From Octopus vulgaris (taxonomy: Eukaryota), in assembly GCA_951406725.2 (NCBI GenBank), contig OX597835.1, forward strand, positions 33,046,001 to 33,110,000: a stretch of DNA of 64,000 nucleotides, in the 5' to 3' direction. Both the position numbers and the translations under genes were made by a program. Numbering within the stretch: the first letter of the stretch is position 1; every line of letters begins with the position of its first letter. A model generated the notes under the pieces. That model was not told the origin of the DNA and ran no database searches. It worked only from the letters and a program-made list of their open reading frames with translations. Shown here in pieces: positions 4,526 to 55,510 of the stretch.

Positions 4526-4828
4526 GTGGAGGCCCAGTGGCTCAGTGGTTAGGGCAGGGGACTCGCGGTTGGAGGATCGTGGTTTCGATTCCCAGACCAG
4601 GCGTGGTGTGTGGTTACTGAACGTAAACACCTAAAGCTACATGAGGCTCCAGCAGGTAGCGACCCCTGTTGTACTCTTTCGCCTCAACTTTCTCTCACTT
4701 TTTCTTCCTGTTTCTTGAGTAACGCTGCAATGGACTGACGTTCCGTCCAGCTAGGGGGAACGCATACGCCATAGAAACTGAGAAACCTGGCCCCTGAGCC
4801 TGGTTAGGTTTGAAAAGGGCGCACAAAT
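4526..4828 (+). mobile_element. tRNA-derived SINE, family A
   Basis: gtggaggc..tggctcagtggttagggcag..ggtttcgattccc head, acacctaaagct body, same tail as the adjacent SINE. Confidence 0.85.
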
Positions 4829-5519: not shown

Positions 5520-5752
5520 AAGGCGGCGAGCTGGCAGAAACGTTAGCGCACCGGTCGAAATGCTAAGCGGAATTTCCTCTGCTGCTACGTTCTGAATTCA
5601 AATTCCGCCGAGGTCGACTTTGCCTTTCATCCTTTCGGGGTCGATTAAATAAGTACCAGTTACGCACTGGGGTCGATATAATCGACTTAATCCGTGTGTC
5701 TATCCTTGTTCGTCCCCTCTGTGTTTAGCCCCTTGTGGGTAGTAAAGAAATA
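5520..5752 (+). mobile_element. SINE family B monomer inserted in a minus-strand family C SINE (~5445-5900)
   Basis: aaggcggcgagctggcag head, gttcaaattcc-like B box, gactttgcctttcatcctttcggggtcgat core (resembles the Meta/Nin-type SINE core), tail agccccttgtgggtagtaaagaaata. Confidence 0.9.
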
Positions 5753-6338
5753 GGTATATGTTCTATCGGTCACCTTTGCCGAAGTGTTTCTTTATGGGAA
5801 CGTAAACAAACCACCAACACTGGTTGGGTATCGCTGTGGTGGTGATGAACAGAAAGGAAACGTGCGCATGCACACACACACACAGACGCACACATGCACA
5901 CACATAAGATAAAAATATTTAAATTGTGTTAGAGTATGGTGCAGATAATTTAATTCGACCAGCACCTGTTTTTCAGGCATCGTTCAACCATTGTTGCTCT
6001 ATAGAATACACAAAGTGCTGTACAACGATAACCATAGCCAGGCTTCAAACGGTGATCTATTTCACTCTGATAGTGAACTTGGCCCTGCAACCCGTCACCG
6101 AGTCATTCGTCAAATTGTCGCAATTACTGTTTCTTCATGAAACGAGATAGAAACCTTCATGTCGTCCTACATTAAACAAGGAGAAGTGTGATATCAGAGG
6201 TATTTCGTTACTGAAACAAGCAAAGATGGTGTCAAATAACAGTTCTCGTTAGTTTCCTGGATATAAGATACACACAGCCACAACGCACAATGAAATACGT
6301 TCTGTAAAACTACACATAGCGTCTCAATGCATGTAACA

Positions 6339-6645
6339 GTGGAGGAACATGGCCTAGTGGTTAGAGCAGCGGACATGCTGTCGAGAGATCGCCAGTTCGA
6401 ACCTCAGACCGGGCGATGTGTGTGCTTATGAGCGAAAACACCTAAACTCCACACGGCTCCGGCAGAAGGTAATGGCGAACTTCTACTGACTCTTTCGCCA
6501 CAACCTTCTCTCACTCTTTCCTCCTGCATCTTGCAGCTCACCTGCGACGGACCGGCGTCCCGTCCAGGTGGGGAACCTATACACTAAAGAAACCAGGAAA
6601 CTGGCCCTTATGAGCCAGGCATGGCTCGAGAAGGAACAAACAAAA
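6339..6645 (+). mobile_element. SINE family A with (ACAA) tail
   Basis: tRNA head; ~12-bp TSD atgcatgtaaca / atgcatgcaaca; sister copy at 23816-24112. Confidence 0.85.
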
Positions 6646-8561: not shown

Positions 8562-8933
8562 ACAATCACCGGTTTGCGATGAATTTATCTTTATTATGAT
8601 CAAGTGATCTAACATAGAATGGGTACCTTACAGGACAAAACAATTACAAAAATGCTATGCGAGTTCGGATGAAATTATAAAAATTACAAAAATTAAATTT
8701 TATGTAACTTGAACGAAAACTTGGCTTACTTTGCCTTCAAACGAAACCTTGGCTTACTTTTGCCTTTATCACGAGAACTTTTAGTGCGTATGTTTTCTTT
8801 TCATTTCTTTTTTTATTATTAATTCTTTATTTTAAACAGTTATGTACAGTGAAAGGTAATGGGAGGTACCAGTCTCAATTTTGAACCCGGCAGCCTATAA
8901 ATCCCAGCAGCTGATTTTTCCTTTCCTCGATGA

Positions 8934-11900
8934 TTAAGCTGGGTTACTCTCACCCACCTTTCTCATCACATCCTTCCAACGTTCCATATACTCTTTCTTT
9001 GGCAGGCTCCTCTTCTGCAACCCCATCTTGCTCTTCAGATGATATCCGAAGTATTTTAACAAACCGGGGCCAGAGATAAAGGACCCTTTCACTAGACCTT
9101 CCACTCTAGTTCTCCATACACACTCTTTCAATACTGCCACCGTACAGTAAAAACAAGCCTTACCTTCCTTTGAGAGTCCAGTTGGCGGTATCATCTTAAT
9201 CATAGATCCAGCCGACAGCTGTACTCGTCCCAGATGCGACAACACGTGTTCAACGTAACTTATCAAGCCTGACAGCTCCCGACATTGTACAAAAGCGTGT
9301 TGAACGGTTTCATCGTCCAACCCACATCTTGGACACGTCGGTGGCACTGACATTCCGTGTCTGGATAACTTCTCGCGAACAGGTAATGCATTCCTATAGC
9401 ACTGCCAGGTCAGGGATATTTAGTAATTATCCAAATACCCCGACCTGAAAGTCTTCTTAAACAGGTTGGAGAGTTGATCCTCATCGAACCCCAGAACCTT
9501 TCCTAGGACGTCGTCATTTTTCCTTCTACCAGCCCTTTACCGAGGTGGTATTCCCGCTGCCGGTTTTGCCCATCTTGTGGATCAGCCAGAGTGCCTGTCG
9601 GCACTCCTTCTGCCATGAAGTCAGGTTACGTCCTTTAATGAGACTGGGTGTAAATCCCTCCATAGAGGCCGGTCGCGGGAAGAATTCCTCTGCCAGCGAA
9701 CTCCACACCTTACCATCCTCCAGGTAACACCAGAGGTGTCTCAGCCTCAACGCATGCTTGCGCATCATTAGCCAAGGCATCCCCAGTCCACCCTTTAGCG
9801 GTTCCTGGCAACACACGGAGCGTCTCACAAGTGGCTTTCCTCCTTTCCACAAAAAGCGGAAAAGGAGTCGTTCCAACTTGTTTAACCACGAATCGGGGCA
9901 CGGCACGACGGTCAGGCGGTAGGTGACGACAGAGGCTATAAACATCTGTGCCACCTCCGCTCTCCCTTTCAAGGAAAGATGCCTTCCGGACCACTTCCGT
10001 GCTATGGCATCCACCTTGCTCGTTACCTCGCTCCAATTCTTCTCCGTCTGGGAGTCTGGACCAAACCAGACTCCGAGCAATTTAACAGGACCATCCGTCC
10101 AGTGTCCAACAACACTGGACGGTATCGGGTTGTTCCTCCAGGTGCCGAAGCGCAAACCGATGAACTTGTTCCTGTTAACTTTTGCCCCTGCCACCGCTTC
10201 GTATCTATGGAGAGCACCTGGTAACCGAGGTAGCTGGGTTCCGTTGGACACGATGAGGGTGACGTCATCCGCATAGGCAGAAACAGACTTACCGCATCCG
10301 ATCTCATTAGGGTTGCCTCCCAACTTCTCCAGCTTCCGCAGCAATGGCTCAAGAGCCAAAACATACAGGAGCGGGGACAAGGGGCACCCTTGACGAACTG
10401 AACGCTTGATCGAAAACGGCTTCGTTAGGTAACCGTTTATCTGGACTGTGGACTTGATGCCGCTATACATAGCTGAGATCCACCCGCAGAAGCTAGGGCC
10501 CAGCCCAGCCGCTTCGAGGACCGCCGCCAAGTACCGATGGTCTACCCTATCAAACGCTTTACTTTGGTCTAAATGGACCAATGCCCCTCCTTTGCCGTCT
10601 AATTTCCCGACCCTATCTATAGTGTAGCGGAGAAGGTGAAGATTATCCTGGATCGACCTGCCTGGGATTGCACATGTCTGTGCCTTCCCGACAAGTTTCT
10701 CCACGACAGCCGTCAACCTTTTTGCTAACACCTTGGCCAAAATCTTAAACTCTACATTAAGTAGAGTTATGGGCCTGTAATTACTAATACTGTCCCCCTT
10801 GCTCGGGTCTTTCTGGACCAGCGTCACAACTCCCCGACTCACAGAGCTGGGAATCCTCCCATTCTGTTGCCAGTTTGCATAGACGCTTGCCAGTATGTCC
10901 CCGAACAAGTCCGGCATACAACAATAAAATTCATAGGGCAGACCATCCAACCCCGGCGACTTTTCCCCGGCGCACTCGGCCATAACCCCTCTTACCTCTG
11001 CGGGAGAGATCGATCCTTCACAGCACTCCGCCTCACCTGCCAAGAGCCGAGGCCCACCAGCTAGGAAGTCCTTTAAGGTCTCCCCACGCTCGAGCGGACC
11101 ACCGCCCCCAAACAGCCGTGCGAAATGCTGGTGAAGGACCTTCTGCATCTCCTCCTGTCCATAGATCTTGCGGACCTGCTCGTCGGTTAAGAACATAATA
11201 CAGGACTTTTTGCCCTTCTGACTCTCCTCACGACAGGCCCATCCGGCAACGTTAATACCTTCTCGTTTTCCTGCACGTAACTTAGCTCTGACTCTACACT
11301 CCCTCGTGCTTGGCGTTGAGGTGACGGTACAATACCGCTCTCGCTGCCAACACTCCGGATGCACAGCCAGATTCCATAGCCTCGTCGAAGTTCTTAACTA
11401 ATTCGCCCTCTATTCTAGTCCTATCTAAACTTAGCTGCTTGCTAAATCTAATGGACTCCAAACGGATGGCTCTTTTGAGGGCGAGCCACCATCTATTATC
11501 AATGATGGTGCCACATAATGCCCTCTGTACTAATTCCTTAATCCGGGTACGGAAAGCTTCACAAGTCAAAATAGACTTGTTCATTTTCCAGTACCCGGGA
11601 CCTTGTCTATGGCATTTATCTACCTGTACCTCACACGTCACAAGTTTGTGATCCGTGTAAGGCACAACAGAGAATTGTGGACAGCTAACACTATTCCTAT
11701 CTCGTTCCTTAACAAATACTCTATCTATGTACGATCTGCGTGAGCCGTCATTATTACTCCACGTCCACTGTGGAAAGTTCGGCTCATCCAGTCGAAAACG
11801 GTCTACTAGATTAAAGCTCGCTAGTAGAGCCTTGAGGCCAGGATTCCCCTTCCTATCGCTCGAGCCTACACCATCCACCCGCGCATCGAGAATGGTGTTG

Positions 11901-12315
11901 AAATCCCCTACCAAAACTACCGTTTTGGACGTCACTAGAAAGTGCTCCAGTTCCCGAAAAAACCGGTCTGCCCACGTCCATTAGGAGCGTAGACAGCCAC
12001 CAACCTGAAGGACTGCTTACTCACGTGCGTCACATCTAGGACAACCAGCCTACCTTCTGGGTCCAGAAAGACAGTACTTACCTGTAAGTCCAAGTTCTTC
12101 CTGAAAAGAACTGCCACACCTGCACCTTCCTCTCGGCTAGGAGAAATAAATTTCTCGTAACCATTGAGAAGTGGTGAGAACGCTTGGGGTCCTTTCATCT
12201 TGGACTCGGTAACAATAGCTACATCGATTCTATGTGAAATGAGGTCGTCCCGAAAACAAGCCTGTTTCCATTTCGATCCCATTCCACGCACATTTATACA
12301 ACCTAACTTAATCAT
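8934..12315 (-). pseudogene. ORF2: APE endonuclease, reverse transcriptase and zf-RVT, broken by ~3 frameshifts and a stop
   Basis: INVRG, VYAPN, LVGDFN, IDRVF, TDHK (APE); KSPGLDG, NYRPITLLN, LDQSKAFDRV, RQGCPLSP, YADD (RT); CPRCG..ETVQHAFVQC; split over ORFs 11935-12315, 11294-11935, 9526-11364 and 8934-9353. Confidence 0.95.
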
Positions 12316-12329
12316 CGAGAAAAAGAAAA

Positions 12330-13806
12330 TTATTTACTCACGGTTGCGAGAGGGAGCCTGACAGATTCCTTCTGCCTGTCTCCCCCACTCGCCGTTGCTG
12401 CTGGGTGTTTCACCGGCGTTGCCACCGGGCTCTGGGTTGGTGTGGCTGCCGGGCTGACGTATAATTTCCCAGTTGTCACCTCCTGGGTGACATCCTTAAT
12501 GAAGCCGCCTTTTGCGAGGTCTTGTAAGTTTTTTTCCTTTCCATCCTTCTTCGCCGCCCCTGTCAAATCGCCACTCCGCTTCCTTCTCGGTCGCTTTGTA
12601 GCATCTGATCTGCGTACTTGCTTGCACAAATTTTACTGCTCTCTCGTTCCTTGTGGTGTATGCTATAATTTTATTCATTGGGTTTAAACCCTTTTACAGT
12701 TGGGGGGTGGGGTTTGTTAAAGTGCTGGCCTATAAATGTAGTACCGCCGGGGTGGGATTGGAGAATATTTTTAATTTGTTCGTCTGCGTTGTTTTTTTTT
12801 GTTACGGGTGGGGAGTCAGGGGTGATGGATTTTTTCCTTTTGTTCGACACGTTCGTGAATTCCATCTCTTCTTGTATATTTGTTTTTGTTGTATTAATTT
12901 CCTCCGCCTTTCCTTTCTCATTTTGCATTTCGTTCTTGTCTTCCTCCTTTTTGGAGTTCGACCTGTTTATTTTTTCCTCCTTGCTTTCGCCAGTCGTTAC
13001 TTTGTTCTCCACTTTGCTGCTTTCTGCGTTCTTCACAGCGTTTTGTGGGGGGGGGGGGGGCCCGTATTATTTTTCTTTTTGCAAACGGAGCGCACGTGGC
13101 CCTTTTGCCCGCACTTAAAACATCTGGGCCTGCGTCCTTCCACCGAAACTCGTATGGAGTGTCCCTCCCCCACGAAGACTCTGTCTGGTAGGCTTTCCAG
13201 CGTCGCATTTTCCGCCTGGATAATCATCTCCACCTGCTGGCCTCTCCAGTGTTTTGCAATTTTCTTCTTCATACTCAAAATTGTCAATTTTGATTCAACA
13301 TCAAAAATGACCGCTGTTGCCGCCCACATCACGTCGTAGCCCCTTGGTATATCTTCTAGGGTCACTTTTGCTGTTCTGCACCCTAAATATAAGGGTAGCA
13401 GTATTATATTCTCGTTTTTCAACGTTTGCGTCGAAATTTGCCTTGCTTCTTCCGCCGTTTCAAAATGCGCCTCCATTGTAGCGCTTCTTGCACCTCGGTT
13501 GACATGACGAACTTTACTCCATATTGGTGCCATACACTTTTCGACCATTTCGTTTTTTACGTCGGTCATTCGTTTTTCTTTTATATTGTATACCTTATAG
13601 GTGACCATTTTTTCCCTTATTGCCTGTATAGTCTCAGGGGGCGGTACCAATCGTGTTTCTTCACCACTTTTTTGCACTAGCGGTCTGAACTTGAATAGTC
13701 TCTCCATTGACACCTCCATTTCTTCCACTTCGCCACCTACGACGTCTGAAAAACTGGGTTTTGCTTGTGTTTCCTTTTGTTTAACAGTTGTTATACCTTC
13801 ACCCAT
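12330..13806 (-). pseudogene. ORF1 gag-like protein with CCHC zinc knuckle, frameshifted
   Basis: RCFKCGQKGHVRSVC followed by a K/E-rich region; frameshift at the G-run ~13047-13060 and near 12650; ends 15 bp before ORF2. Confidence 0.85.
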
Positions 13807-13903
13807 CTCGGGAAAGTCTTTTTTGAACTTAAGTCTAATTCCATATTAGACAACATTTTCAAAAATAACCTATACAGGTTAAGAGTTCACGTGAAATGAG
13901 TAC

Positions 13904-14543
13904 AGATATTACATATTCTGTTCTAGGAAAATATGATGAGATATAATCTACTTTACAGTTACCGCAGTTCAAACAGTTTCCCATTTACATGTTGCCAGTT
14001 ATACTTCACGAGGAAGAAGAAAAACGAACTCCATACCTCTATATCATTTGAAGGCATTATTTTGGGGTTTTAAAGCTAAGGAAAATAACTCGAGTCGTTG
14101 TGATAGCGTTGGCGTATCACTACTACCATGGCAACCAGTGGTATTTCTTCTTTAAGTATGAGTTTGAAAGATGAGTCAATTATTAGGAATTACAACTAGA
14201 TGAAATCTCGAGGCGGTTTAAATACAAGTTAGAGATCCTAAAAGGTGTCAGCAAAATGGCACCCACTTGATACGATCCACCCCTCTTGGGTTTCGAAAGT
14301 TAACGACCGAAACACATGCTTGAAGTGAGGTTCTTCTCGGAAGATCTGCTCTTCATCTCTCTTGAGAATTTCATGCCACTATAACCCAATTTAAGAAAAA
14401 TACGCGTTAGAGATTTTAACACACACAGTCAGAAGATATCATTCATAGAAGCTACAACTCAGAGTTAGTACTTAAATCACATATAGTAATTGCCATTCAC
14501 TGTTACAGCCAAACATGGCCCTCTCCGTGGACGGTCTACCAAC
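13904..14543. repeat. Arm A of a ~640-bp inverted repeat, bracketed by a 17-bp inverted repeat (13887-13903 / 14546-14562)
   Basis: Reverse complement aligns end to end with 19587-20244; flanks tcacgtgaaatgagtac / gtactcatttcacgtga. Confidence 0.93.
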
Positions 14544-14654: not shown

Positions 14655-15072
14655 AAGGCGACGAGCTGGCAGAAACATTAGCACACCGGGCGATATGCTT
14701 AGCGGTATTTCGTTTGCCGTTACGTTCTGAATTCAAATCTTGCCGGGGTCGACTTTGCCTTTCATCCTTTCGGGGTTGATTAGATAAGTACCAGTTACGT
14801 ACTGGGGTCGATGTAATCGACTTAATCTGTTTGTCTGTCCTTGTTTGTCCCCTCTATGTTTAGCCCCTTGTGGGTAGTAAAGAAATAGGTATTTCGTCTG
14901 CCGCTACGTTCTCAGTTCAAATCCCGCTGAGGTCGAATTTGCCTTTCATCCTTTCAGGGTCGATTAAATAAGTACCAGTTACACACTGGGGTCGATATAA
15001 TCGATCTTAATTCGTTTGTCCGTCCTTGTTTTTCCCCTCTATGTTTAGCCCCTTGTGGGTAATGAAGAAATA
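14655..15072 (+). mobile_element. SINE family B dimer
   Basis: Full unit plus a second unit starting at ggtatttcgtctgccg; TSD agtactcgatgatg / agaacttgatgatg. Confidence 0.88.
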
Positions 15073-17398: not shown

Positions 17399-18090
<692 letters not shown>

Positions 18091-18602: not shown

Positions 18603-19018
18603 AAGACGGCGAGCTGGCAGAATCGTTAGCACGCCGGGTGAAATGCTTATCGGTATTTCGTCTGCCGCTACGTCTGTGTTCAAATTCCGCCGAGGTCGAC
18701 TTTGCCCTTCATCCTTTCGGGGTCGATAAATTAAGTACCAATTACGCACTGGGGTCGATGTAATCGACTTAATACCTATGTCTGTCCTTGTTTGTCCCCT
18801 CTTTGTTTGGCCCCTTGTGGGTAATAGAGAAATAGGTATTTCGTCGGCCGCTACGTTCTGAATTCAAATTCCGCCGAGGTCGACTTTGCCTTTCATCCTA
18901 TCGGGGTCGATTAAATAAGTACCAGTTACGCGCTGGGTTCGATATAATCGACTTAATCTGTTTGTCTGTCCTTGTTTGTCTTCTCTGTGTTTAGTCCCTT
19001 GTGGGCAGTAAAGAAATA
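18603..19018 (+). mobile_element. SINE family B dimer
   Basis: Same dimer junction as 14655; TSD ggtaggttacacaacata / ggtaggttccacagcata. Confidence 0.88.
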
Positions 19019-19169
19019 GGTAGGTTCCACAGCATACACACGCACGCACGCACGTATACGCACATATGCAAAGAAACACATACACACACGCACAATCAGA
19101 GAGAGAGAGAGAGGCAGAGGGTGAGAAAGAAGTGAGAGTAAGAGGAAGACAGAAAGATTGGCTGGTTTA

Positions 19170-19586: not shown

Positions 19587-20244
19587 GTTGGTAGACCGTC
19601 CACGGAGAGGGCCATGTTTGGCTGTAACAGTGAATGGCAATTACTATATGTGATTTAAGTACTAACTCTGAGTTGTAGCTTCTATGAATGATATCTTCTG
19701 ACTGTGTGTGTTAAAATCTCTAACGCGTATTTTTCTTAAATTGGGTTATAGTGGCATGAAATTCTCAAGAGAGATGAAGAGCAGATCTTCCGAGAAGAAC
19801 CTCACTCAAGCATGTGTTTCGGTCGTTAACTTTCGAAACTCTAAGAGGGTGGATCGTATCAAGTGGGTGCCATTTTGCTGACACCTTTTAGGATCTCTAA
19901 CATGGAAGACTTGTGCATTTAAACCGCCTCGAGATTTCATCTAGTTGTAATTCCTAATAATTGACTCATCTTTCAAACTCATACTTAAAGAAGAAATACC
20001 ACTGGTTGCCATGGTAGTAGTGATACGCCAACGCTATCACAACGACTCGAGTTATTTTCCTTAGCTTTAAAACCCCAAAATAATGCCTTCAAATGATATA
20101 GAGGTATGGAGTTCGTTTTTCTTCTTCCTCGACCAAATGTGAAGTATAACTGGCAACATGTAAATGGGAAACTGCAACTGCAGTAACTGTAAATGGTAGA
20201 TTATATCTCATCATATGAATCTTAGAACAGAATATGTAATATCT
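19587..20244. repeat. Arm B of the ~640-bp inverted repeat
   Basis: gttggtagaccgtccacgg...aatatgtaatatct equals the reverse complement of 13904-14543 with a few indels. Confidence 0.93.
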
Positions 20245-20860: not shown

Positions 20861-20869
20861 TATAAATTG

Positions 20870-21295
20870 AAGGCAGCAAGCTGGCAGGATCGTTAACGCG
20901 TTGGACAAAATAACGGTATTTCGTCCGTCTTTAGGTTCTGCGTTCAAATTCTGCCGAGATCGGCTTTGCTTTTTTTTTTCTTTCAAAATCGTTAAAATAC
21001 GTGCCAGTCGAGCACCGGGGTCAACGTAAGCGATTTATTTCCTCTCCTGGAATTACTGGTCATGTGCCAAAATTTGGAATCAGTATGATAACATAAGCTG
21101 AAAAGTTAACGCCCTAGGCAAAATGCTTAGTAGGATTTTGTCTGTCTTTATGTTCCGAGTTCAAATTCCGGCGAAGATGGCTTTACCTTTCAGACTTTGG
21201 GGATCGATAATATAAGAATATAAATACCTGTGGAACACAGGATTCGACTTAATCGTGTAGCCCTGCCCCCGATATTACTGGCCTTTGAATCCAAC
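20870..21295 (+). mobile_element. Two degenerate family B-like SINEs with an alternative tail
   Basis: gttcaaatt B boxes, core remnants, tail ctgg..tgtgccaaaatttg. Confidence 0.65.
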
Positions 21296-21519
21296 ATGAT
21301 AACATAATTTATTGTCATCTAATTGCTTTGTGCACCCTGGAGAAAATGCCAAAAACTGAAAACTATATCGTGTAGCATTTCGAAAATCAGATTTTCTTGT
21401 TACCAAACCTTCCTGTGAAGAATATATCGTAAGAGTATGGTCTGCCATGTGATTGTATGATCTGATAGAAATAAGATTGTTACCCACTCCGAAGAATAAA
21501 ATCGCATAAAATCTAGCAC

Positions 21520-22702
21520 ATCAAATTCCTTCCATCTGTTTACAAGCTTTTTAATACCATCAATGTAAAATTCTTTTGGTTTCAAAGCGAAGAACTCTGA
21601 AATGTCAGATTCGACTTTCTCTTGGGTTGCGAAAGTTATGTCCCACAAATGATTCGGTAAACTACGAAACAAATGGTAGTCTGAAGGAGTAAAGTCGGAA
21701 GAATAAGTTGCATGAGGATTTTTTTCCCAACCAAACCCTTCGATATTCTTTGATGTGATCTTTGCAGTGTGCGGTCGTGCATTGTCCTGATGAAACATCG
21801 CTCTTTTTCGATTCACTAAAGCGGGTCATTTTTTCTTCAAAGCTTGGTTAAAACGCTATAAATGCTGACAGTTCTTGAGCATTGATTGTTACATTAGGTA
21901 GTAACAATTCAAAGTGAATTACTCCTTTGCAATCCCACCAGATAGGGAGAAGAATCTTTTTCCCATGAACTTCCCTTCTCGTTTATGGTTCAGCTTTTTC
22001 CCTTTTACCAAGCCACTGTTTGTGACGTTTAACATTTCGATAGAAGATCCATTTTTCGTTACCAGTCACAAGCCTATCCCAAAAGGGTGAAATGAGTTCG
22101 CGAGAATGGAGAAAAGTGCAGATGTTAACTCGTGATTTGCGGTTGCTTTCGGACAATTCATGAGACACCTATTTTCCAATTTTAGGAATATTTCCAAGTT
22201 ATTGAAGAGGACGATGAACAGTTGTATGGTTTGAACTAAGCTGTATTGCCAATTCTTGAGCTGATAATGCAGGATTTCCTTCTAGTAATGCCTCAAAGAG
22301 CTCATCACCAAACTCAACTGGACGTCTTGTTTGATCTTCATCTTCAAAGCTGAAATCTCCACTTCTGAATTTTACAAACCATCTTCTGTAAGTTCTTTCA
22401 TTCAAACAGTCTTTCCCATAAACTGAGTGTATGTTTCGAGTCGCTTCAGCTGCAGAGTTTCCTTTCTTGTACTCATAAAGCATTATGTGCCTCAAATGCT
22501 CTTTGGATACGTCCATGTCAGAAAGGATTTTAATCAAAGTAATTTTAATTCTATTATTTTGTAAAATAATAATTAATTACTTTAAATGTACATAAATACA
22601 CAAAAACAATTTTCAATTCCATTAGACATTCTAAAATGCTATTAAATTTCATTCAATTTAAAAAATGGGAAAATCGGACAGAACTTATGGTTATGATCTG
22701 AT
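21520..22702 (-). mobile_element. Decayed mariner (Mos1/SETMAR-like) transposon
   Basis: HLRHIMLYEYKKGNSAAEA HTH, SHELS, LVTGNEKWIFY, FHQDNARPH, YSSDFTPSDYHLF in three broken ORFs; one TIR-like end at ~22670-22702, other end not found. Confidence 0.92.
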
Positions 22703-22784
22703 ATTTAAAATAGGTTTTAAATAAGGACAGAAGAGGAGGGTCTTTCGATTGAGCTCAACAGACGACATATGAATAAGTATATGT

Positions 22785-23007
22785 TTTTTATTACCCACAA
22801 TGGGCTAAACATAGAGGGGACAAACAGGGACAGACATTAAGTCCATTACATCAACCCCAGTGCTTAACTGGTACATAATTTATCGACCCCGAAAGGATGA
22901 AAGGCAAAGTCGATCTCGGTGGAATTTGAACTCAGAACGTAGCGGCAGACGAAATACGGCTACGCATTTCGCCCGGCATGCTAACGGTTCTGCCAGCTCA
23001 CCGCCTT
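22785..23007 (-). mobile_element. SINE family B
   Basis: Full head to tail; TSD acatatgaataagtatat / acatataaataagcatat. Confidence 0.88.
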
Positions 23008-23815: not shown

Positions 23816-24112
23816 GTAGAGGCACATGGCCTAGTGCTTAGAGCAGCGAACTCGCGGTCGAGGGATTGCAGGTTCGAATCTCAGACCGGACGATGTGTGT
23901 GTTTATGAGCGAAACACCTAAGCTCCATGGGGCTACGGCAGAAGGTAATGGAGAACTTCTGCTGACTTTTTCGCCACAACTGTCTCTCACTCTTGTAGTT
24001 CACCTGCGACGGACCGGCGTCCCGTCTAGGTGGGGAACCTATACGCCAAGGAAACCGGGAAACCGACCCTATGAGCCAGGCGTGGCTCGAGAAGGAACAA
24101 ACAAAACAAAAT
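23816..24112 (+). mobile_element. SINE family A inserted after a family D head (~23708-23815)
   Basis: Colinear with 6339-6645. Confidence 0.85.
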
Positions 24113-33092: not shown

Positions 33093-33352
33093 TACCCCTT
33101 CCTCTATCTATAAATAGAAAAAAATCTTGTTTGTCTCCACTGAACTAAATAAAAAAAACCCTCCCCATTGATAATTCTAAATAACAAAGTTAACTCAGGG
33201 ATAAAAAGTCTGCCCATGGAGAAGGACCTTCTACTACCATGTTCTTAATGGCGAAATTAACCTCTCTATCTATATATCTACCCTCTTTGTAATGTTGGCA
33301 AATAGAATAAGTATAAAAATGAACATTGTATATTTAATTTTAAAATTCTATA

Positions 33353-33487: not shown

Positions 33488-33798
33488 CACCGTGACCACC
33501 GTGACCGTCCAGGCTATCAGATGTTGCTACACATCGCTGGTCACAATCCACTTCGCTTTGTTTTAGCCTTCGAATGACGCCACCCTCTGGCTAAGCGAGC
33601 AAGCCAACAGAAGAAAGAGTGAGAGAAAATTGTGGCGAAAGAGTACAGCAGGGATCGCCACCACCCCACTGACGGAGCATCGTGGAGCTTTAGGTGTTTT
33701 CGCTCAATAAACACTCACAACGCCTGGTCTGGGAATCGAAACCGCGATCCTACAACAGCGAGTCCGGTACTCTAACCACTGGGCCATTGCGCCTCCAC
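33488..33798 (-). mobile_element. SINE family A with RTE-like tail
   Basis: Head ends gggccattgcgcctccac; tail carries gtgaccagcg, also in the RTE 3' end at ~20800. Confidence 0.85.
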
Positions 33799-33893
33799 GA
33801 TATATATATATATAAATAATTGGACATGCAAAATTTCAGCTAGATCAAACAACTGCAAGTGGGTCAGAGGCATTACTTATTGAACGTCTCTCG

Positions 33894-35870: not shown

Positions 35871-36519
35871 TAAGCTTCGGATATGTTTCTGTTACCACAA
35901 TCTGTGATAGTGCCTGAATTGCACCGATATTTAATGTTTAAGGTACCCCAAAGTAAGGTACCTTTTCTGCTGTAACCAGTTCAGTCAGAAACGCCAATTG
36001 TCTAATAATTCATCGATATATCTGAGAAATACTTACATGTGTTAGACTAAGCGTCTGACACGTAGACTGATTACACCATCTTCTGTCGCTTACATTTACT
36101 TCTAATTTTGGTTTCAAATATTAGGACAAGGTCAGCAAGTTAGTGTGGGGGTACAAGTCAATTACTTCGACCCCAGAATGCGACTGGTTCTTATTTCATC
36201 GACCCCGAAAGGATAGAAGACTAAGTCGAACTCGGCGGAATTTGAAGTCAGTATGTAAAGAATGACATTAAAATAAGTACAAGTTCCGTAAGGGGTTTGA
36301 TGTGACTGACCTACACTCTACCTGAAACTGCTGGATTTGTGCCAAAATGTGAAACTAAGACCAGAAATTCCTACAGCGAAAATCTGGTAGACTACTTAGC
36401 GCGTCGGACAAAATGTCCATTTACGTATCGTCCGGCTTTTAACGTTCTGGGCGCGAACATGAATGTGTTCAAATTCTAGTAATAGTTGGCGTAAATTTCA
36501 TCGTAATATGCTCCATACT

Positions 36520-37264: not shown

Positions 37265-37650
37265 TTGAGCGAAGCGGTCTTCGTCCCAGAGGTCGCAAGA
37301 TCGCGCCACTGCAGTGGGAGAAGTCCGAAACGTGGTCCTTTGCTATTCGTAAGACCCGCAGATGAGGAAGCAGGTCAACACCCAACACTGAGAGCATCGA
37401 CGGATGGATGAATGCGCATCCAGGCTCAGCGGTTACGTAGGAAGTCGGGGACAAGAAACAGGAAGAAAGAGTGCGAGAAAGTTGGTGCGAAAGAGTACAA
37501 CAGGGTGCGCCACCACCCCCTGCCGGGGCCTCGTGGAGCTTTAGGTGTTTTCGCTCAATAAACACAAATAACACCCGGTCTGGGAATCGAGACCGCGATT
37601 CTCCGAACGCGAGTCCTCTGCCCTAACCACTGGGCCATTGCGCCTCCACT
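37265..37650 (-). mobile_element. SINE family A with a further tail type
   Basis: Sister of 57482-57832. Confidence 0.85.
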
Positions 37651-37959: not shown

Positions 37960-38310
37960 TTTTCGTTCCATAAATGAGAAGAATAGACTACATCTATTGT
38001 GAAAGGTAGAAGAGTCCAGTTTGCTGGACATTGTTGTATGCGATATGTCGAGCGATTTATTATTCCTTGTACATTTAGCATGCCTTGCAAACGAGGTAAT
38101 TTCTACTCTTCTCCTCTGGAAGCCAGCTGCACGCGATACCAGAGGGCTCACGCTCTCCTACCCTGATGTAATCTCCGGGGATACAAGCATCCAGCAACAG
38201 AACCTCCATAATGCCATGATGAACCGTGAAGTCTGGCGTAACATAATAAATACCATTGTCTCGACCACGGTCGAACAATGAATGATGATATATATACATA
38301 CATATATATA

Positions 38311-38362
<52 letters not shown>

Positions 38363-38640
38363 GACATGTTCAAAGTTCAGTTAAAAGTCCAGACACGTAG
38401 GAGAGTCCAGTTTGCTGGACATTGTTGTAGAGCTGAAAACGAGGCTATTTCTACTCTTCTCCTCTGGAAGCCATCTGCTCGCGATACCAGAGGGCACACA
38501 CTCTCCTACTCTGATGTAATCTCCAGGGATACAGGCATCCAGCAACAGGACCTCCATAATGCTATGATGGACCGTGAAGTCTGGCGTAACATAATAAATA
38601 CCATTGTTCGACCACGGTCGAACAATGGTGATGATGATAC
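37960..38640 (+). mobile_element. Two tandem 3' fragments of an RTE-like LINE
   Basis: RVQFAGHC..LLLWKP.ARDTRG..LHNAMM.REVWRNII twice (~37960-38288, 38395-38640), each ending in (ATG)n. Confidence 0.8.
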
Positions 38641-39222: not shown

Positions 39223-39314
39223 TATATATATACATACATACTTAGTTAAGACTTGAAAAAGCTCGTGTATTTAATGAAATATTCATAAAAAAACTGTTCC
39301 CTCTAAAAAAAAAA

Positions 39315-39635
39315 GACTCCGCCGGTTACGACGACGAGGGTCCCAGCTGATACGATCAACGGAACAGCTTGCTCGTGAAATTAACGTGCAAATGGCTGAG
39401 CATTCCACAGACACGTGTACCCTTAACGTAGTTCTCGGGGATAATCAGCGTGACACAGAGAGTGACAAGGCTGACCCTTTGAAATACAAGTACAACTCAT
39501 TTTTGCCAGCTGAGTGGACTGGAGCAACGTGAAATAAAGTGTCTTGCTCAAGGACACAACGCGTCGCCGGGAATCGAACTCACAACCTTACGATCATGAG
39601 CCGAATGCCCTAACCACTAAGCCACGCGCCCTCAC
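39315..39635 (-). mobile_element. SINE family D, well preserved
   Basis: Minus strand gtggcttagtggttagg (A box), gagttcgattccc (B box), CORE-like ccttgagcaagacactt body. Confidence 0.9.
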
Positions 39636-40130
39636 TGTTCCCTCTACGAGCATATACATGTGCCTACGTGTATGAATGTATGTATTCATATGAGTGTGTG
39701 TGCGTGGCGATGATGCTACCGAACTTTTGCGTTAGTATCTATAAAAGTTTCTATTTTTTTTATAAATGTATTTTACTCTAAAATATATTCATTAATTTTC
39801 GGGCTTTTTTTTTATTTGTCCATACTACATCGTGGATTTAGGTTGGTTTCCATTATTTTTGTTGCAATTTCTATAATTTTGTTTAAGTTTCGGGCAGACA
39901 CTTTATAGCTACGAATAGACAAAAAAAAATGAAAAATTATTTAAAAACAGCCGTTTTCTGTTTCTGTTTTTCTTTTGTCAGTAAAATTTATGAGCAAACG
40001 ACCGTGTTTTTCTAGTTTCTCTCTCTATGATAATATAATTTTATAAATGTATTCTTCCATGCAGATTCCCCTGATACAGTCTAGAACCTTGAAAAAAGAT
40101 ATGAGAAACGTGTTTGTGTGGGTCATCAGA

Positions 40131-40259: not shown

Positions 40260-40645
40260 AACAGTTTCAAATTTTGGAACAAGGCCAGCGGTTTCGAGGT
40301 AAGGAATAAGACGATTTCATCGATCCCAGTGATCGATGATCGATTGCTACTTACTGTATCGGTCCCATGAGGATGAAAGCCAAAGTCAACACCTAAGGCG
40401 GTATTTGAACTCAAAACGTAAACACGGACAAAACACCACTAAGCAACAAAAATGAAAACAATCCTTTCTAATATGAGCACAAGGCCTGAAATATCGGTGG
40501 AGGGTGCTAGTCGATTACATCGACCTCATTGTTTTACTGGTCTTTAATTAATAGACCTAGAAAGGATGAAAGGCAAAGTCAACCTCGGTGGAATTTGAAT
40601 GCAGAACGTACAGACGGACGAAACGCCGCAAAGCATTTCTTTGCC
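40260..40645 (-). mobile_element. Two family B-like SINEs with the alternative tail
   Basis: aggatgaaag.caaagtcaac and tttgaa motifs twice. Confidence 0.7.
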
Positions 40646-40682
40646 GTGATTATGACGACGACGATAACAACAGCAACAAAAC

Positions 40683-40772
<90 letters not shown>

Positions 40773-40825
40773 AAGAACAACAACAACAACAATAACAAAA
40801 ATAATAATAATAACAATAATACTAA

Positions 40826-41575
40826 TAATTTTACTTGCAGCACAAGACCAAAGCCTCCCCACCAGAAATTACCAAAAATATGTAATGAAAAGAAATATAA
40901 CAAGTAACTGCAGAATATGTGGAGATGGACAAGAAACAATAAATCATATTATCTCTGGCTGCCCAGTCCTGGCTAAGAAGGAATATATTCACAGACACGA
41001 CAGAGTTGGGACCTATATACACTGGAAACTATGCCAACATTATGGAATAACAACAGAAAAAAAGATGGTATAGGCACACACCAGAAAAGGTCACAGAAAA
41101 CGAGAAAGCAACCATACTCTGGGATATGCCAATACACACAGATAGAGAAATTAAGGCCAACAGACCAGATATAGTTGTCAGAGATCATGAAGAAAAAAAT
41201 GTTTTCTAATTGATGTATCAATACCAGCGGATGTCAACGTGTCTCTCAAAGAAATGGAGAAACTTTCAAAATACAAAGACCTGGAAATAGAGGTAACCAG
41301 AATGTGGAATCTAAAAACAGAAACAATTCCTATCATAATAGGTGCATTAGGCATGATAAAAAATATTCAGACAAATACATAACAAAAACACCAGGACTTA
41401 CAAACACATATAACATACAGAAAATTGCACTACTAGGCACTGCACACATCCTACGCAGAACACTTTCCATAGAATAACCATCAGAGCATCACAACAAATC
41501 ACAGCACATACCCAAGGCACACAGAGCTGTGCTCGTTAGTGAAGTGAAAGCACGATATAAAAAATATACTACTGA
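40826..41575 (+). mobile_element. Dong/R4-clade LINE 3' fragment with restriction-like endonuclease, in (TAA)n
   Basis: AAQDQ, CRICGDGQETINHIISGC (CCHC), RHD, then after a frameshift ILWD..TDREIKANRPDIVV, LIDVS, KYKDL, IGALG; (AAT)n on both sides. Confidence 0.9.
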
Positions 41576-42039: not shown

Positions 42040-42269
42040 ATTTCTTTACTACCCACACGGGGCTAAACAAAGAGGGGACAAACAAGGACAGACAAAGGGA
42101 TTAAGTCGATTACATCGACCCCAGTGCGTAACTGGTACTTAATTTATCGACCCCGAAAGGATGAACGGCAAAGTCGACTCGGCGGAATTTGAACTCGGAA
42201 CGTAACGACAGATGAAATACGGCTACGAATTTCGCCCGGCGTGCTAACGTTTCTACCAGCTCGCCGCCT
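42040..42269 (-). mobile_element. SINE family B with 14-bp TSD
   Basis: tgtcatgcatatat at 42026-42039 and 42270-42283. Confidence 0.9.
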
Positions 42270-42403
42270 TGTCATGCATATATGGTTGTGATGCATGTGC
42301 CTGGTGTACCTTTATCAGTCGGGTAGTCATGATGGATATACTGGGCTTCGTATATTTTACCCCAGTGTCACTTTGATGGCATGCACTGCTCTCTCACTCA
42401 AGA

Positions 42404-42461: not shown

Positions 42462-42572
<111 letters not shown>

Positions 42573-43028
42573 CCTTTCTACTAAATGCACAAAAACTGAA
42601 ATTTTTGGGAGGAGACCAGTCGATTACATCGACCCCAGTGTTTCAGTGGTGCTTGATTTATCGACCCCGAAAGGATGAAAGGCTTATTCGGCCCCAGTAA
42701 AATTTGAAACCAGAACGTAAAGACAGCCGAAATGCCACTAAGCATTTTAACCGGTGTGTTAATGATTCCGCCAATTCTCTGTTATAGGCACAAAGACTGA
42801 ATTCTTCTGGAAAGGAACTCGTCGATTATATCGATTACAGTACTTTATTGGTTTTCAGTCCATCGATCGTGAAAGGTGGAAAGTCAAAGTCAAACTAGGC
42901 GGAATTTGAAATCGGATACTAAAAGCGGAAGAAATGCCTCGAAAGAAACAATAAACAACAATAACAGAGAAAGATAACGTTGAAGATGGTGAAACTAATG
43001 ATGATGAGGATGATGATGAGGATGATGA

Positions 43029-46049: not shown

Positions 46050-46224
46050 CGTATAGTGTCAAATACGGTGTCCTGCCATCCAGGTGGGATGCAAAGCGTT
46101 TTGCAGGACAGTCCCTCAGCAAAGTCTACATGTTTGGCATTACAGCGGTCAGCAACTTGTTTACATATTCAGTCTGTAAACAAGTATGTAAACAAGTGCC
46201 ATACTCTCAACAATACGCCCTTAA

Positions 46225-49059: not shown

Positions 49060-49540
49060 TGTAAAAGTTTTGCAACAACTAATACATTCGGTTGTGCAAA
49101 TTCTTTGCACGGGAAACCTGCCCTGTGTGACGTGTTTCCCGATTGTGTAAATTTGTTTTCAGCTTTCCTAGCCATTTCTGTTTTGAGCATGGAGTCTTCA
49201 AGCCATGAAGTCGTCGTTGCGAAGAACACCGGTCTCCTTGACGACGCTTACGACGTTGATTTCTCTACCCTGCCTTCCCCACAGCTTTATGAAGGATGGG
49301 AGAAGGGGAGAAGCAGCACAGGTGCAGGTGTGAGTATGAACGCCAACAACGCCACCGACACACAACAAATTCAAAGCACCCAGACGACAACTTCACGGTC
49401 AACTACGGACAACTCTGCCACAAACATCACCATTGTTGTTTTTTTTTTTGCTTTTTTCTCTTCCCCCCCCTCGAAAAGAAAAACTCTACATTGTAATTGT
49501 CCCTTCTGTATTTAGCCCTGTGTGGCCAATAAATAGATTA
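49060..49540 (+). mobile_element. Short non-autonomous element: putative 5' part fused to a Tx1 3' tail, flanked by (CTAT)n
   Basis: 3' ~90 bp match 50665-50750. Confidence 0.7.
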
Positions 49541-49592
49541 TCTATCTATCTATCTATATATCATTATCACTCTTTATCTATCTCTCTATCTT

Positions 49593-49679
<87 letters not shown>

Positions 49680-49741
49680 CTCTATCTATCTTTATCTAAC
49701 TATCTATCTATCTATATGTCTGTCTGTCTGTCTATCCATCT

Positions 49742-50752
49742 ACGTCGACGAGGAATACCTGACCCGCCTGTATGGGACGACTTTCGGGCCAGGGCCCATG
49801 GACAGCTTCCAGAGATCCCTGGCCTGGCAGTGCTACCGAGAAGCGCTACCCGTTCGGGATAAGCTCTACAGATACGGCTCGAGAAACACGGGGCCGACCT
49901 GCCCGAGATGCGGTCAGAGCGACGAAACCGTTCTGCACGCACTCGTGCAGTGTCCAAGAATTTCCGACCTGTGGGCTTGTGTCGAACAACTGCTGTCACG
50001 TGTGGGACGAGTCGGTTTATCAGCTGAGTCTATCGTCAATATTGTCACGCCTCCTTCCTTCAAACGGGAAGGAAGAGCTATTTTCATCATCCTTGTGGCT
50101 ATGGCGAAAGAATGTATCTGGTGGACGCGTCTGAAAGGATTGGAGACAAACACTTTCCTCTCTGGTCAAACTCTCATCAACTTCTTCAAGTACCACTTGA
50201 AAAGGAAAGTGAGAGTAGAGAGGCAAGTTTTGTCTAGCGAACGTTTTAAAAAAAGATGGGTGAATGTAGCAAGGATGGCACGTATGAATGACGAAGCCAC
50301 CTTTCTGGGTCCTATGAACCCAGAAATTGAAAACAGAGGGTTACCCACTTGCAAACAAATGTGGTAACATATAACAATATTGACCGAGGTTACCGTGGTC
50401 TTTTTCGTAGGCTTTTCTTCCCACGGATAAACCTTACTTGCTTTCCCCTTTACACCATACATCATGACACTGTGATACACGATCCCTATTGATGGTTTTT
50501 TTTTCTCTTCCCCTTTTTTCCTCTTTTCTCTTCTTTTTTCATTTTTCTTTGCTTTTGTTCCTTTTCCCTCTTTTCATTTTTTTTCTTTTCCTTTTTTTTC
50601 TTTTTTTCCTTTTATTTGTTGTTTTTTCCCTTTTACGATCCCTTTTGATCGAAAACCTACGCCACTTTTTTTTTTCTCCCCCAAAAGAAAAGCTCTACCT
50701 TGTAACTTGTCCCATCTGTGTGCAGCCCTGTGTGGCATATAAAGAAACTTTT
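49742..50752 (+). mobile_element. 5'-truncated Tx1-like LINE (second family) in (CTAT)n
   Basis: SLAWQCYREALPVRDKL..TCPRCGQSDETVLHALVQC..KECIWWTR..FKYHLKRK, homologous to the ORF2 end at 8934-9500; T-rich 3' UTR. Confidence 0.9.
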
Positions 50753-50829
50753 CTATCTATCTATCTATCTCTCTATCTATCTTTATCTATCTCTCTATCT
50801 ATCTTTATCTAGCTATGTATCTATCTTTG

Positions 50830-50865
<36 letters not shown>

Positions 50866-50884
50866 ACTGTCTATCTATCTATCG

Positions 50885-50925
<41 letters not shown>

Positions 50926-51179
50926 CCTATCTATCTATCTACCTATCTCATGGACGGACGATAGTCACATCGGCTCGTAGTAAGTTTGCCCTTTACTGCC
51001 TTTAAAAGTTGTGTATTGTATTGTCTTTTTTATGTAAAAGTTGTGCAACAACTAATACATTCGGTTGTGCAAATTCTTTGCACCGGAAACCTGCCCCGTG
51101 TGGCATGTTTCCAGATTTTGTAAATTTGCTCTCGGCTTTCCTAGCCATTTCTATTTTGAGGATGGCGTCTTCAAGCCAT

Positions 51180-53550: not shown

Positions 53551-54954
53551 CATATGGATACTGGAAATATAGTTTTGATTCGCAAATGCGCTTAAGGAAG
53601 ATATTAATCTCATAATTTACTAACCACGCAACCACTTATATGAGAAGAATTTGGACTTAGTTGAAAATACCCTTATACGCCATAAGAATATATAATCTTT
53701 CGAGAAGACGTGAAATAATAACTTTCTGGAACGATGTATCTTGAAACAAGTACAGCTAGAAAGGATAGCATGTAAATATTGGGTTAAAAAGCCATTTTGG
53801 TAAGAAAAAGTCAAAGGTAGGGCGTGGGATCCGAACCAGCGTCTCTGGTATTCATGTCAAGCGTTCGGTCATGCGTATTCGTCGCTTTTATTTTATATTC
53901 ACAATAATGTTTCCACCCAATGTTATTATTTATAACTTTATGTCCTTCGAGATCTACTGTTACAAAGAAAAGATAGCTTTGTCAAGGGTGGCGTTGTAAT
54001 AGGGGTAAATTTCAATAAGCTAGAAATTTCAAGCCGTTTGAATTCCGTGTAGCAAGCCTTTTAATTCCTTGTAGCTGACCTTTCAATTCCCTTCTATCCC
54101 TTTATAAGATGCAATAGTCATTCAAAATCCAGTTAAATTTGCATTAAAAAATGACTTATATAATTTTATTCCCAGTCTGTTCAGTTATGGCGATTTTTTG
54201 GCCAATTCTAAAATTAGTATTTTTTCAAATTATATCATAATAGGTTATATGGAAGAAAATGTAAACAGCTATTTTTAAAGACTTTAGATAGAAGTGTGCG
54301 TTTGACTTTTTTTATCTATTAAGTCATCATGAGATTCATTCAATCTCCTATATTTTTTTCTAATATTAATATTTATATTATTCTATAGTCCGTCTTACAT
54401 TGAGAGTTTAAATTCCCTCGAGTTGGAATTTGCCTTTCAGCCTTTCAGAATCGATAAAATAAGCACCAATTGAACCATGGGGGTCGATGCAATCGACTTC
54501 ACTCCTTTCCCAAAATTGCTGGCCTTGTGCCAAAATCTGAAAACAATATTATCTTATTTTCGACATAATGATATTTTTTTGTTTGCATGTTTTGATGAGA
54601 AGTATTCAGGACAGAAAAGCGGAGTTAATTTTTTAATGAGTCGACGCTCTGGTTTAAATATTTAACTAAATTATCGTATTAATTAATTTGAACACGACAT
54701 CACTACCACCATCATTATCAGCATCATCACTTTTTATGGAATATTTTCTCACCTATAATTGATGGGCAGATCATGTGCACCAATATGAAATCGATACTTG
54801 TGGTGTTATTAATCCACTTATAACTACAGTCATTTCCTCCAGTACATTCACTTCTGTATACCCAAACATAAATAGCTATATATATAAACTTTTTCCGTAA
54901 TGAGATAAAAAAAAACCAAGACTGTGAAGATTTTAGAACATTTATAAATAGAAG

Positions 54955-55510
54955 GTCAAGGACAGACAAACGGATAAGGTCGATTACATCGACCCCAGTG
55001 CGTAACCAGTACTTAATTTATAGACCCCGAAAGGATGAAAGGCAAAGCTGACCTCGGCGGAATTTGAACTCAGAACATAAAGACAGACGAAATACCGCTA
55101 AGCATTTTGCCCTACGTGCTAACGTTTCTGCCAACTCGCACCTTAGAATCTGAAAATATCATTTTTAAAGGAGCTATATTAGTGAGTATCGGAATGAATC
55201 GATCCTCTTACTAACACTCAAGATTATGAATTATGTATGTAGAAGAAGAGAAACTTCTAGTGTCTCTGAAATAGGTGAGCCCAAAGGCGGACTTCACTCC
55301 TGTCTTAGTTCTCTCCATGGCCCCACAAGAGGCTAAACATAGACGGGACAAACAAGGACAGACAAAGGGATTAAGTCGATTACATCGACCCAGTGCGTAA
55401 CTGGTACTCAATTTATCGACCCCGAATGAATGAATGGTAAAGTAGCGGCAGACGAAATACTGCTAAGCATTTCGCCAGGCGTGCTAACGTGTCTGCCAGC
55501 TCGCCGCCTT
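54955..55510 (-). mobile_element. Two SINE family B copies (54955-55143, 55317-55510)
   Basis: caaggacagacaaa..gtcgattacatcgaccc; second copy has an internal deletion. Confidence 0.85.

What the first reader, a model, noticed from the sequence alone, without database searches (positions are those of the whole stretch)
5700..5752. Abundant SINE family B shares its 3' tail with a Tx1-clade LINE
Seen: the family B tail (consensus ttgtcccctctgtgtttagccccttgtgggtagtaaagaaa) aligns without gaps to the Tx1 3' terminus at ~50708-50748 (ttgtcccatctgtgtgcagccctgtgtggcatataaagaaa; 32/41 by my count) and to ~49497-49535. Family B copies have 14-18-bp TSDs. Known: SINEs recruit a partner LINE RT through a shared 3' tail, best documented for L2, CR1 and RTE; tail-sharing Tx1 partners are less commonly reported. 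Inference: a SINE-Tx1 partnership, in which the SINE apparently does not follow the LINE's (GATA)n association.
Basis: partly seen in the sequence, partly recalled or inferred. Interest (0 to 1): 0.7.

Follow-up and report, generated by a model that had tools for sequence, protein, structure and literature searches.

The report
Octopus SINE with borrowed Tx1 tail
A common short repeat in what is likely octopus DNA ends in nearly the same 41 bases as a long retrotransposon (likely Tx1-type) in the same stretch, so it likely borrows the copying enzyme of that retrotransposon's lineage, a known trick that my searches did not find reported for this lineage.

Summary
The tail match is real. The tail belongs to the LINE. 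Two diverged copies share it together with upstream 3' UTR, and over 100 contigs per run in four runs carry a variant letter there. A second family of the same LINE lineage has a weaker version at its own 3' end, and an older sister SINE lacks it, so transfer was likely LINE to SINE. The tail is predicted to form an 11-pair hairpin (moderate support). TSDs are clear for 4 of 5 complete insertions, but not for the focal copy. The LINE is L1-group and likely Tx1; no named reference could be placed in a tree. The 'ignores (GATA)n' twist is weak: SINE and LINE tails differ by 22%, several sister families exist, and the second family is not in GATA. The real partner is likely another family. Ten literature searches found no tail-sharing Tx1 SINE; Repbase and Dfam were not checkable. 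This scan had not noted it before. Verdict: new variant of a known kind.

The parts
5520..5757 (+). SINE B, focal monomer (B1); no clear TSD
5522..5609 (+). tRNA-like head: ends complementary, A-box-like and B-box-like motifs read by eye (consensus recalled); ARAGORN and Rfam find no tRNA
5610..5688 (+). body shared with the older sister SINE family C; no CORE motif, not Meta
5689..5752 (+). B-specific tail; 5710-5750 matches the Tx1a ends, 5718-5748 is the predicted hairpin, and the block from about 5689 resembles the Tx1b end
14655..15072 (+). SINE B quasi-dimer B2 (second unit starts at about position 50 of the unit); TSD 11/13 around the whole dimer
18603..19022 (+). SINE B quasi-dimer B3 with the same junction; TSD 16/18 around the whole dimer
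22781..23007 (-). SINE B monomer B4; TSD 16/18
42040..42270 (-). SINE B monomer B5; TSD 13-14 exact
55322..55510 (-). SINE B copy B6, ends inside the hairpin
54957..55139 (-). SINE B-like copy B7, ends before the hairpin
49745..50748 (+). Tx1a: 5'-truncated L1/Tx1-group LINE (ORF2 C-terminus with zf-RVT, pyrimidine-rich 3' UTR, tail 50694-50748), (TATC)n on both sides
49434..49537 (+). second, diverged Tx1a 3' end (UTR plus tail, with AATAAA), followed by (TATC)n
49539..49742 (+). (TATC)n array between the two Tx1a pieces
50752..50948 (+). (TATC)n array after the Tx1a tail
8583..13900 (-). Tx1b: decayed near-full LINE of the same lineage (zinc-knuckle ORF1, endonuclease, RT, zf-RVT); not in GATA repeats
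8588..8618 (-). Tx1b terminal 31-nt hairpin: same lower stem, different upper stem, 21/31 to the SINE majority
54388..54552 (+). example of sister SINE family C: same head and body, different tail (others near 20861, 36153, 40265, 40445, 42555, 42821)

Best explanation
Family B is a likely tRNA-derived SINE whose last 41-65 bases match the 3' end of an L1-group, likely Tx1, LINE lineage in the same DNA; it likely gained this tail by tail swap and is likely copied by the ORF2 protein of a family of that lineage, probably not the (GATA)n-associated family seen here. Shown: the tail match, the tail's presence in several LINE copies, long TSDs, and a sister SINE with the same head and body but another tail. 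Inferred steps: (1) an ancestor like family C switched template onto the LINE's 3' end; (2) Pol III transcribes from the head and, with no T4 run in most units, reads through the tail and sometimes a second unit; (3) ORF2p binds the predicted 31-nt hairpin that ends in AATAAAGA or AGTAAAGA; (4) target-primed reverse transcription at an endonuclease nick leaves 13-18 bp TSDs; (5) the partner is a sister family with little or no GATA preference.
For: Match far above background. Two Tx1a copies share UTR plus tail in one alignment. In each of four runs, 105-123 contigs (counted up to 128) carry a variant letter at 50706, up to 41-49 letters from a contig end, and no SINE-diagnostic letter is among the 40 rows shown (53 not shown). 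Tx1b, 47% identical to Tx1a in the ORF2 C-terminus and in the same 100/98 clade, has a 21/31 version at its own 3' end. That is the best hit outside SINE B and Tx1a among 127,938 positions, keeps all 7 lower-stem pairs and folds at z -2.45. RNAalifold gives 11 pairs, 3 with changes on both sides, and 0-3 of 500 shuffles reach the observed values. Family C lacks the tail. Long TSDs fit an L1-group or RTE endonuclease (own knowledge). Accepted bivalve SINE-LINE tail homologies are 35-61 bp at 72-95% (PMC11481361).
Against: No functional test, no genome, and no further LINE 3' ends as sequence (all empty). Tail identity of 78% is well below the 91-95% within the SINE family, so the exact partner is not in hand. 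Single tails mostly fold no better than shuffles (8 of 8 with z above -1; 5 of 8 above -1.5). The lower stem alone is not significant (50/500), the structure was derived from these same sequences, and only three LINE ends carry the covariation. The two Tx1a ends break one upper-stem pair in the SINE register. Tx1b scores only E 1.4 with the structure model, below four unrelated hits, and is absent from the sequence-only list. No bridging contig was listed in the truncated table 8.
Confidence: 0.68

Rival explanations
1. The (GATA)n-associated family Tx1a itself mobilises SINE B, and the SINE escapes its target preference because priming depends on pairing of the RNA 3' end with the nicked target.
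For: Tx1a is the best LINE match in the window. The 4 TSDs and the focal copy's 7-nt match all begin with ATA, GTA or GGTA, like the SINE's last bases (n=5). Most contigs laid on Tx1a are at least 90% alike, so ages may overlap with B (91-95%).
Against: 22% tail divergence. SINEU families share the target preference of their inferred Tx1 partner (PMC4494074). Many sister families exist: 80 L1-Tx1 consensus families in O. vulgaris (PMC13282606 supplement) and P0001-P0005. Tx1a's own specificity rests on 2 ends in one cluster.
Confidence: 0.13
2. The tail came from this LINE lineage long ago but is now a relic; another LINE (RTE, Dong-R4 or CR1, all abundant in octopus) copies the SINE.
For: Low tail identity and weak single-sequence folding. 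RTE also makes long TSDs (own knowledge). LINE-like fragments of other types lie in the window.
Against: The tail is kept at 93% mean column identity among SINE copies, and most changes keep the pairs. Complete copies end right after the hairpin. No other LINE end matches.
Confidence: 0.12
3. Reverse transfer: the LINE family captured a SINE B tail at its 3' end.
For: Sequence similarity alone has no direction, and the Tx1b homology is statistically weak window-wide.
Against: A 47%-identical sister family has a related hairpin at the same place. The tail overlaps the LINE's AATAAA. Family C, more diverged, lacks the tail. No SINE head or body lies upstream in the LINE.
Confidence: 0.05
4. Chance or compositional similarity.
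For: Short match in an AT-rich, repeat-rich window.
Against: Background maximum 24/43 against 31-32/43; E 4e-7; the match falls exactly on the 3' termini of both elements.
Confidence: 0.02

Closest known systems
Stringent SINE-LINE pairs with shared 3' stem-loop (UnaSINE/UnaL2, ZfL2; CR1, L2, RTE, Nimb pairs; PMC3747384 Table 1, PMC4176376, PMC11481361; passages read)
   Same: tRNA-like head, body, and a 40-60 nt tail at 72-95% identity to a LINE 3' end, with a predicted hairpin.
   Different: The partner is L1/Tx1-group. No Tx1 pair appears in the Table 1 passages I saw (58 pairs stated), nor among the four bivalve partner clades.
SINEU with Tx1-Mar in crocodilians (PMC4494074; passages and section 16)
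   Same: A SINE inferred to be mobilised by a Tx1-clade LINE.
   Different: SINEU has snRNA heads and polyA tails. The link rests on shared target, ages and heads, and no LINE in Repbase matched the 3' half of SINEU-1. Here the link is a shared tail, with no shared target seen.
L1-clade stringent pairs in plants and algae: ZmSINE2/3 with LINE1-1_ZM, SINEX-3_CR with L1-1_CR (PMC3747384; passages)
   Same: An L1-group LINE lineage with a conserved 3' hairpin shared with a SINE.
   Different: Those are plant and algal L1s; this is an animal, likely Tx1, lineage with a different sequence.
Octopus SINEs OK, OR1, OR2 (Ohshima and Okada 1994; seen only as a citation; the name OK is recalled)
   Same: Abundant tRNA-derived octopus SINE.
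   Different: B lacks the CORE motif attributed to OR1/OR2; a separate CORE-type SINE is in the window (39290-39660, minus). Whether B is the OK family or an existing Repbase/Dfam entry could not be tested.

Membership tests
tRNA-derived SINE | short (<700 bp), interspersed, multicopy, non-coding | tested here: met
   about 235 bp, 9 units at 7 loci in 64 kb, no ORF of 120 aa or more over them
tRNA-derived SINE | head with Pol III A and B boxes and identity to a tRNA | tested here: inconclusive
   box-like motifs by eye and paired ends of an 88-nt head; ARAGORN 0 and Rfam 0; no tRNA set to compare
tRNA-derived SINE | target-site duplications | tested here: met
   4 of 5 complete insertions, 13-18 bp; the focal copy fails
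stringent SINE-LINE pair | shared 3'-terminal sequence | tested here: met
   32/41 to two LINE ends; E 4e-7 and 3.4e-5
stringent SINE-LINE pair | tail intrinsic to the LINE family, not a private insertion | tested here: met
   two diverged window copies share UTR plus tail; over 100 variant contigs per run in 4 of 4 runs; no bridging piece listed in the cut table
stringent SINE-LINE pair | conserved stem-loop with compensatory changes | tested here: inconclusive
   11 pairs, 3 with two-sided changes, 0-3/500 shuffles; lower stem alone 50/500; single folds mostly not significant
stringent SINE-LINE pair | overlapping activity periods | tested here: inconclusive
   7 of 9 B units 91-95% to majority, 2 truncated units 78% and 88%; most Tx1a-like contigs at least 90% alike; no genome-wide landscape
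stringent SINE-LINE pair | tail-dependent mobilisation in trans | not testable with these tools
   needs a cell assay
Tx1 clade | L1-group ORF2: APE endonuclease, RT, C-terminal zinc domain | tested here: met
   Pfam on Tx1b and Tx1a and relative P0013; best PDB hit of P0013 is human L1 ORF2p, 1e-72
Tx1 clade | type I ORF1 with zinc knuckle rather than Transposase_22 | tested here: inconclusive
   Tx1b ORF1 zf-CCHC E 8.7e-4, just under the curated cut-off, and no Transposase_22; distant relatives fused to ZCCHC3-named ORF1; criterion from PMC5203782; Tx1a ORF1 not identified
Tx1 clade | RT phylogeny grouping with named Tx1 elements | not testable with these tools
   no named Tx1 reference came back; the tree has none
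Tx1 clade | target-sequence preference (common, not universal) | tested here: inconclusive
   2 of 2 Tx1a 3' ends enter (TATC)n, both in one cluster; Tx1b does not
CORE-SINE (OR1/OR2 type) | CORE domain with the CCTTGGG-type motif (PMC5786205) | tested here: not met
   absent from the B alignment; present in other window SINEs
MetaSINE | Meta central domain | tested here: not met
   B motifs absent from the one supplement file searched; no likeness by eye to BivaMeta-SINE1 (part 1 of 4)
octopus OK SINE or a Repbase/Dfam family | identity to the published consensus | not testable with these tools
   SINEBase supplement unavailable; sequence words found in no paper

The most novel reading that the evidence does not exclude
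This is the first tail-sharing SINE of a Tx1-clade LINE, showing that animal Tx1 recognises its RNA stringently through a terminal hairpin, and the partner is the (GATA)n-targeting family itself, so one ORF2p inserts its own RNA into GATA repeats but the SINE RNA elsewhere: target choice would depend on the RNA's 3' end, not on the endonuclease alone.
Probability: 0.12. Interest if true: 0.78.

Novelty: new variant of a known kind. Interest (0 to 1): 0.47.

Why it matters
SINEs make up about 11.6% of the O. vulgaris genome and most recently active SINE families there are unclassified (PMC13282606). Naming the engine of an abundant family would help explain the octopus SINE expansion. A shared hairpin would add the animal Tx1 branch to the 'stringent' LINEs and bear on the proposal that the L1 group was ancestrally stringent and that mammalian polyA recognition is derived (PMC3747384). 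A 31-nt hairpin whose lower stem stays constant while the upper stem differs between families gives a compact, testable specificity code. The mechanism itself is well known, so the gain is one more clade, not a new principle.

Tried and rejected
Whole genome: none held. Related loci: genome contigs twice and metagenome contigs once by protein, and the tail pattern in viral, genome and metagenome collections: all empty, as expected for mostly prokaryotic collections; no evidence either way. Named Tx1 references: none. tRNA source of the head: ARAGORN and Rfam negative (the hits lie almost all on microsatellites and none on a B copy). 'TX1' in PMC4176376 is a mutant name, not the clade. Depth per bin looks alike for ORF2, UTR and tail, but the tool says contig depth cannot rank parts, so I use only contig counts. 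The hit at 33126-33154 (E 0.012) is a gapped match to the two ends of the model without the hairpin; rejected as a tail. The peptide at 49189-49431 has no relatives among 1.84 billion representatives and no similarity to P0006, so the 5' unit is not shown to be Tx1 ORF1. No LINE end was identified among the top hits of the family C tail, listed by score and position only. A TSD for Tx1b was not found. PMC4795812 was not held. Supplements not seen (SINEBase sequences, Repbase, Dfam, bioRxiv files) could hold family B or this pairing.

Full report
Setting. The window is AT-rich (36% GC) and full of microsatellites and repeats. It is likely octopus DNA: 37 residues of the LINE at 49745-50748 are 95% identical to an Octopus bimaculoides protein, and an Argonauta protein falls in the same clade. 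No whole genome is held, so the analysis rests on the window, protein relatives and one read-laying run.

Observation. Family B has 9 units at 7 loci. With the focal copy's 43-nt tail, SINE tails score 36-43, the two LINE ends 32 and 31, a truncated SINE copy 28, and nothing else exceeds 24. Profiles built only from the 7 SINE tails place the two LINE ends next after the SINE copies, at E 4e-7 and 3.4e-5. With small gaps the match extends to about 55 nt. TSDs of 13-18 bp flank 4 of 5 complete insertions (null p 0.001-0.002); the focal copy has only 7 nt, p 0.04. Two further copies are 3'-truncated.

Anatomy of the SINE. An 88-nt head has paired ends and A- and B-box-like motifs (box consensus recalled), but ARAGORN and Rfam do not call it a tRNA. 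The body is shared with a more diverged sister family, C, which has another tail. B has no CORE motif and does not resemble the Meta domain; a CORE-type SINE occurs separately in the window. Two loci are quasi-dimers with the same junction, each flanked as a whole by one TSD, so dimers were copied as units. Five of six loci have no run of four T inside the element, which fits Pol III read-through; this step is inferred.

The LINE. Tx1a (49745-50748) encodes an ORF2 C-terminus with zf-RVT, 65-72% identical to five proteins, four with zf-RVT plus RT or part of it in range (P0001-P0005). Their full-length relatives have endonuclease, RT and zf-RVT, with human L1 ORF2p as best PDB hit, 1e-72. A second, longer element, Tx1b (8583-13900, minus), is 47% identical in the C-terminus and groups with Tx1a at 100/98 in a tree of 36 rows chosen from those with a C-terminal domain. 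Its ORF1 has a weak zinc knuckle and no Transposase_22, which PMC5203782 links to Tx1 in non-mammalian animals. L1-group membership is shown; Tx1 is likely, but no named reference was available.

Is the tail the LINE's own? Two diverged Tx1a ends share 3' UTR and tail in one alignment. Laying contigs of four runs from four coded organisms on 49745-50760 covered all 30 bins. At 50706, next to the tail, 105-123 contigs per run carry a variant letter, up to 41-49 letters from a contig end. No SINE-diagnostic letter is among the 40 rows shown, though 53 rows were not shown and no bridging piece was listed. The tail overlaps an AATAAA in one Tx1a copy. Tx1b ends in a 31-nt segment that is 21/31 identical to the SINE majority, the best hit outside B and Tx1a among 127,938 positions, with two hits at 20. 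It also resembles the SINE block just upstream of the hairpin. Against this, Tx1b scores only E 1.4 with the structure model and is missed by the sequence model, so it counts only because of where it lies. With family C lacking the tail, the direction was likely LINE to SINE.

Structure. RNAalifold on the 10 tails gives 11 pairs, 3 with changes on both sides, and 0-3 of 500 shuffles reach the observed measures. The lower 7 pairs are kept in 68 of 70 cells but are not significant alone (50/500). Single folds are mostly unremarkable: no z below -1 among 8, and z of -1.8 or lower for 3 of 8. The support is moderate: few independent sequences, and a structure derived from them.

Targeting. Both Tx1a ends run into (TATC)n; no B copy and not Tx1b does. 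The simpler reading is a different partner. B units are mostly 91-95% identical to their majority but 78% to Tx1a in the tail, Tx1b shows that related tails occur outside GATA, and O. vulgaris has 80 L1-Tx1 consensus families (PMC13282606 supplement row). Uncoupled targeting is not excluded.

Mechanism. Likely tail swap onto a C-like SINE, Pol III transcription, hairpin binding by ORF2p of a family in this lineage, and target-primed reverse transcription with long TSDs. Only the sequence relations and TSDs are shown; recognition and mobilisation are inferred from the stem-loop dependence shown for zebrafish L2 elements (PMC4176376, passages). Confidence 0.68.

Literature. Nine searches returned listings or nothing, and one by sequence words found no paper; none showed a SINE sharing a tail with Tx1. 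Passages read: PMC3747384 (Table 1 passages show no Tx1 pair; L1-clade pairs only in maize, sorghum and Chlamydomonas), PMC4494074 (passages and section 16; SINEU tied to Tx1-Mar by target, age and head), PMC4824008 (passages, supplement part 1 of 4), PMC4758252, PMC5786205, PMC3531059, PMC11481361 (partners CR1, CR1-Zenon, L2, Nimb), PMC5804259 (passages and supplement search), PMC8967140, PMC11203168, PMC5203782, PMC5753468, and PMC13282606 (part 1 of 3 and supplement search). Ohshima and Okada 1994 was seen only as a citation. Repbase, Dfam and SINEBase sequences could not be checked and may already hold the family or the pairing. Earlier scan notes held no look-alike stretch; one note on another genome concerned a Tx1/L1 tail without a SINE.

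Verdict. A real SINE-LINE tail pair with a likely Tx1 donor: a known mechanism, apparently unreported for this clade in the library searched, with the exact partner unidentified. New variant of a known kind; interest 0.47.

Noticed in passing
window 48569-48922, 49060-49433, 50950-51181 (+): A repeated unit lies between the (TATC)n arrays; two copies end at the same base and one runs directly into a Tx1a 3' end. It could be a Tx1a 5' end, making 49060-49537 an internally deleted (bipartite) Tx1, a form PMC5786205 reports only for RTE, Ingi, Vingi and R2. Its peptide had no relatives.
   Followed up: partly
window 14655-15072 and 18603-19022: Two SINE B quasi-dimers share one junction at about unit position 50, and two other copies end in the first bases of that second unit, which suggests a tandem source gene read through by Pol III.
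   Followed up: partly
window 48166-48570, 51183-51622, 56501-56955: A MITE of about 440 bp with terminal inverted repeats of about 27-30 bp; two copies bracket the Tx1a cluster.
   Followed up: no
window 13904-14543 and 19587-20244: A 650-bp repeat, 95% identical between copies in opposite orientation, interrupts the 5' end of Tx1b.
   Followed up: no
window 20861-21216, 36153-36261, 40265-40639, 42555-42938, 54388-54552: Sister SINE family C with a different tail, some copies followed by (ATT)n and some in head-to-tail pairs; partner LINE not identified.
   Followed up: partly
window 17780-17799 (+): The last 16-20 bases of the B tail appear at the end of a copy of another composite SINE-like repeat; tiny truncated insertion or chance.
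   Followed up: partly
window 4526-4823, 6339-6645, 23816-24106, 33606-33820, 37320-37650, 57505-57838: Another tRNA-headed SINE group with one head and at least three different tails, a further case of tail exchange.
   Followed up: no
P0005, P0011: Close relatives of the LINE ORF2 are filed as Herbaspirillum sp. MAG proteins on a 1.8-kb contig, likely animal DNA in a bacterial bin.
   Followed up: no
window 21400-22576 (-), 40570-41073 (+), 38038-38639 (+), 46050-46427 (+): A decayed mariner transposase (HTH_48) and fragments that look like other LINE types (Dong-R4-like and RTE-like, labels recalled).
   Followed up: no
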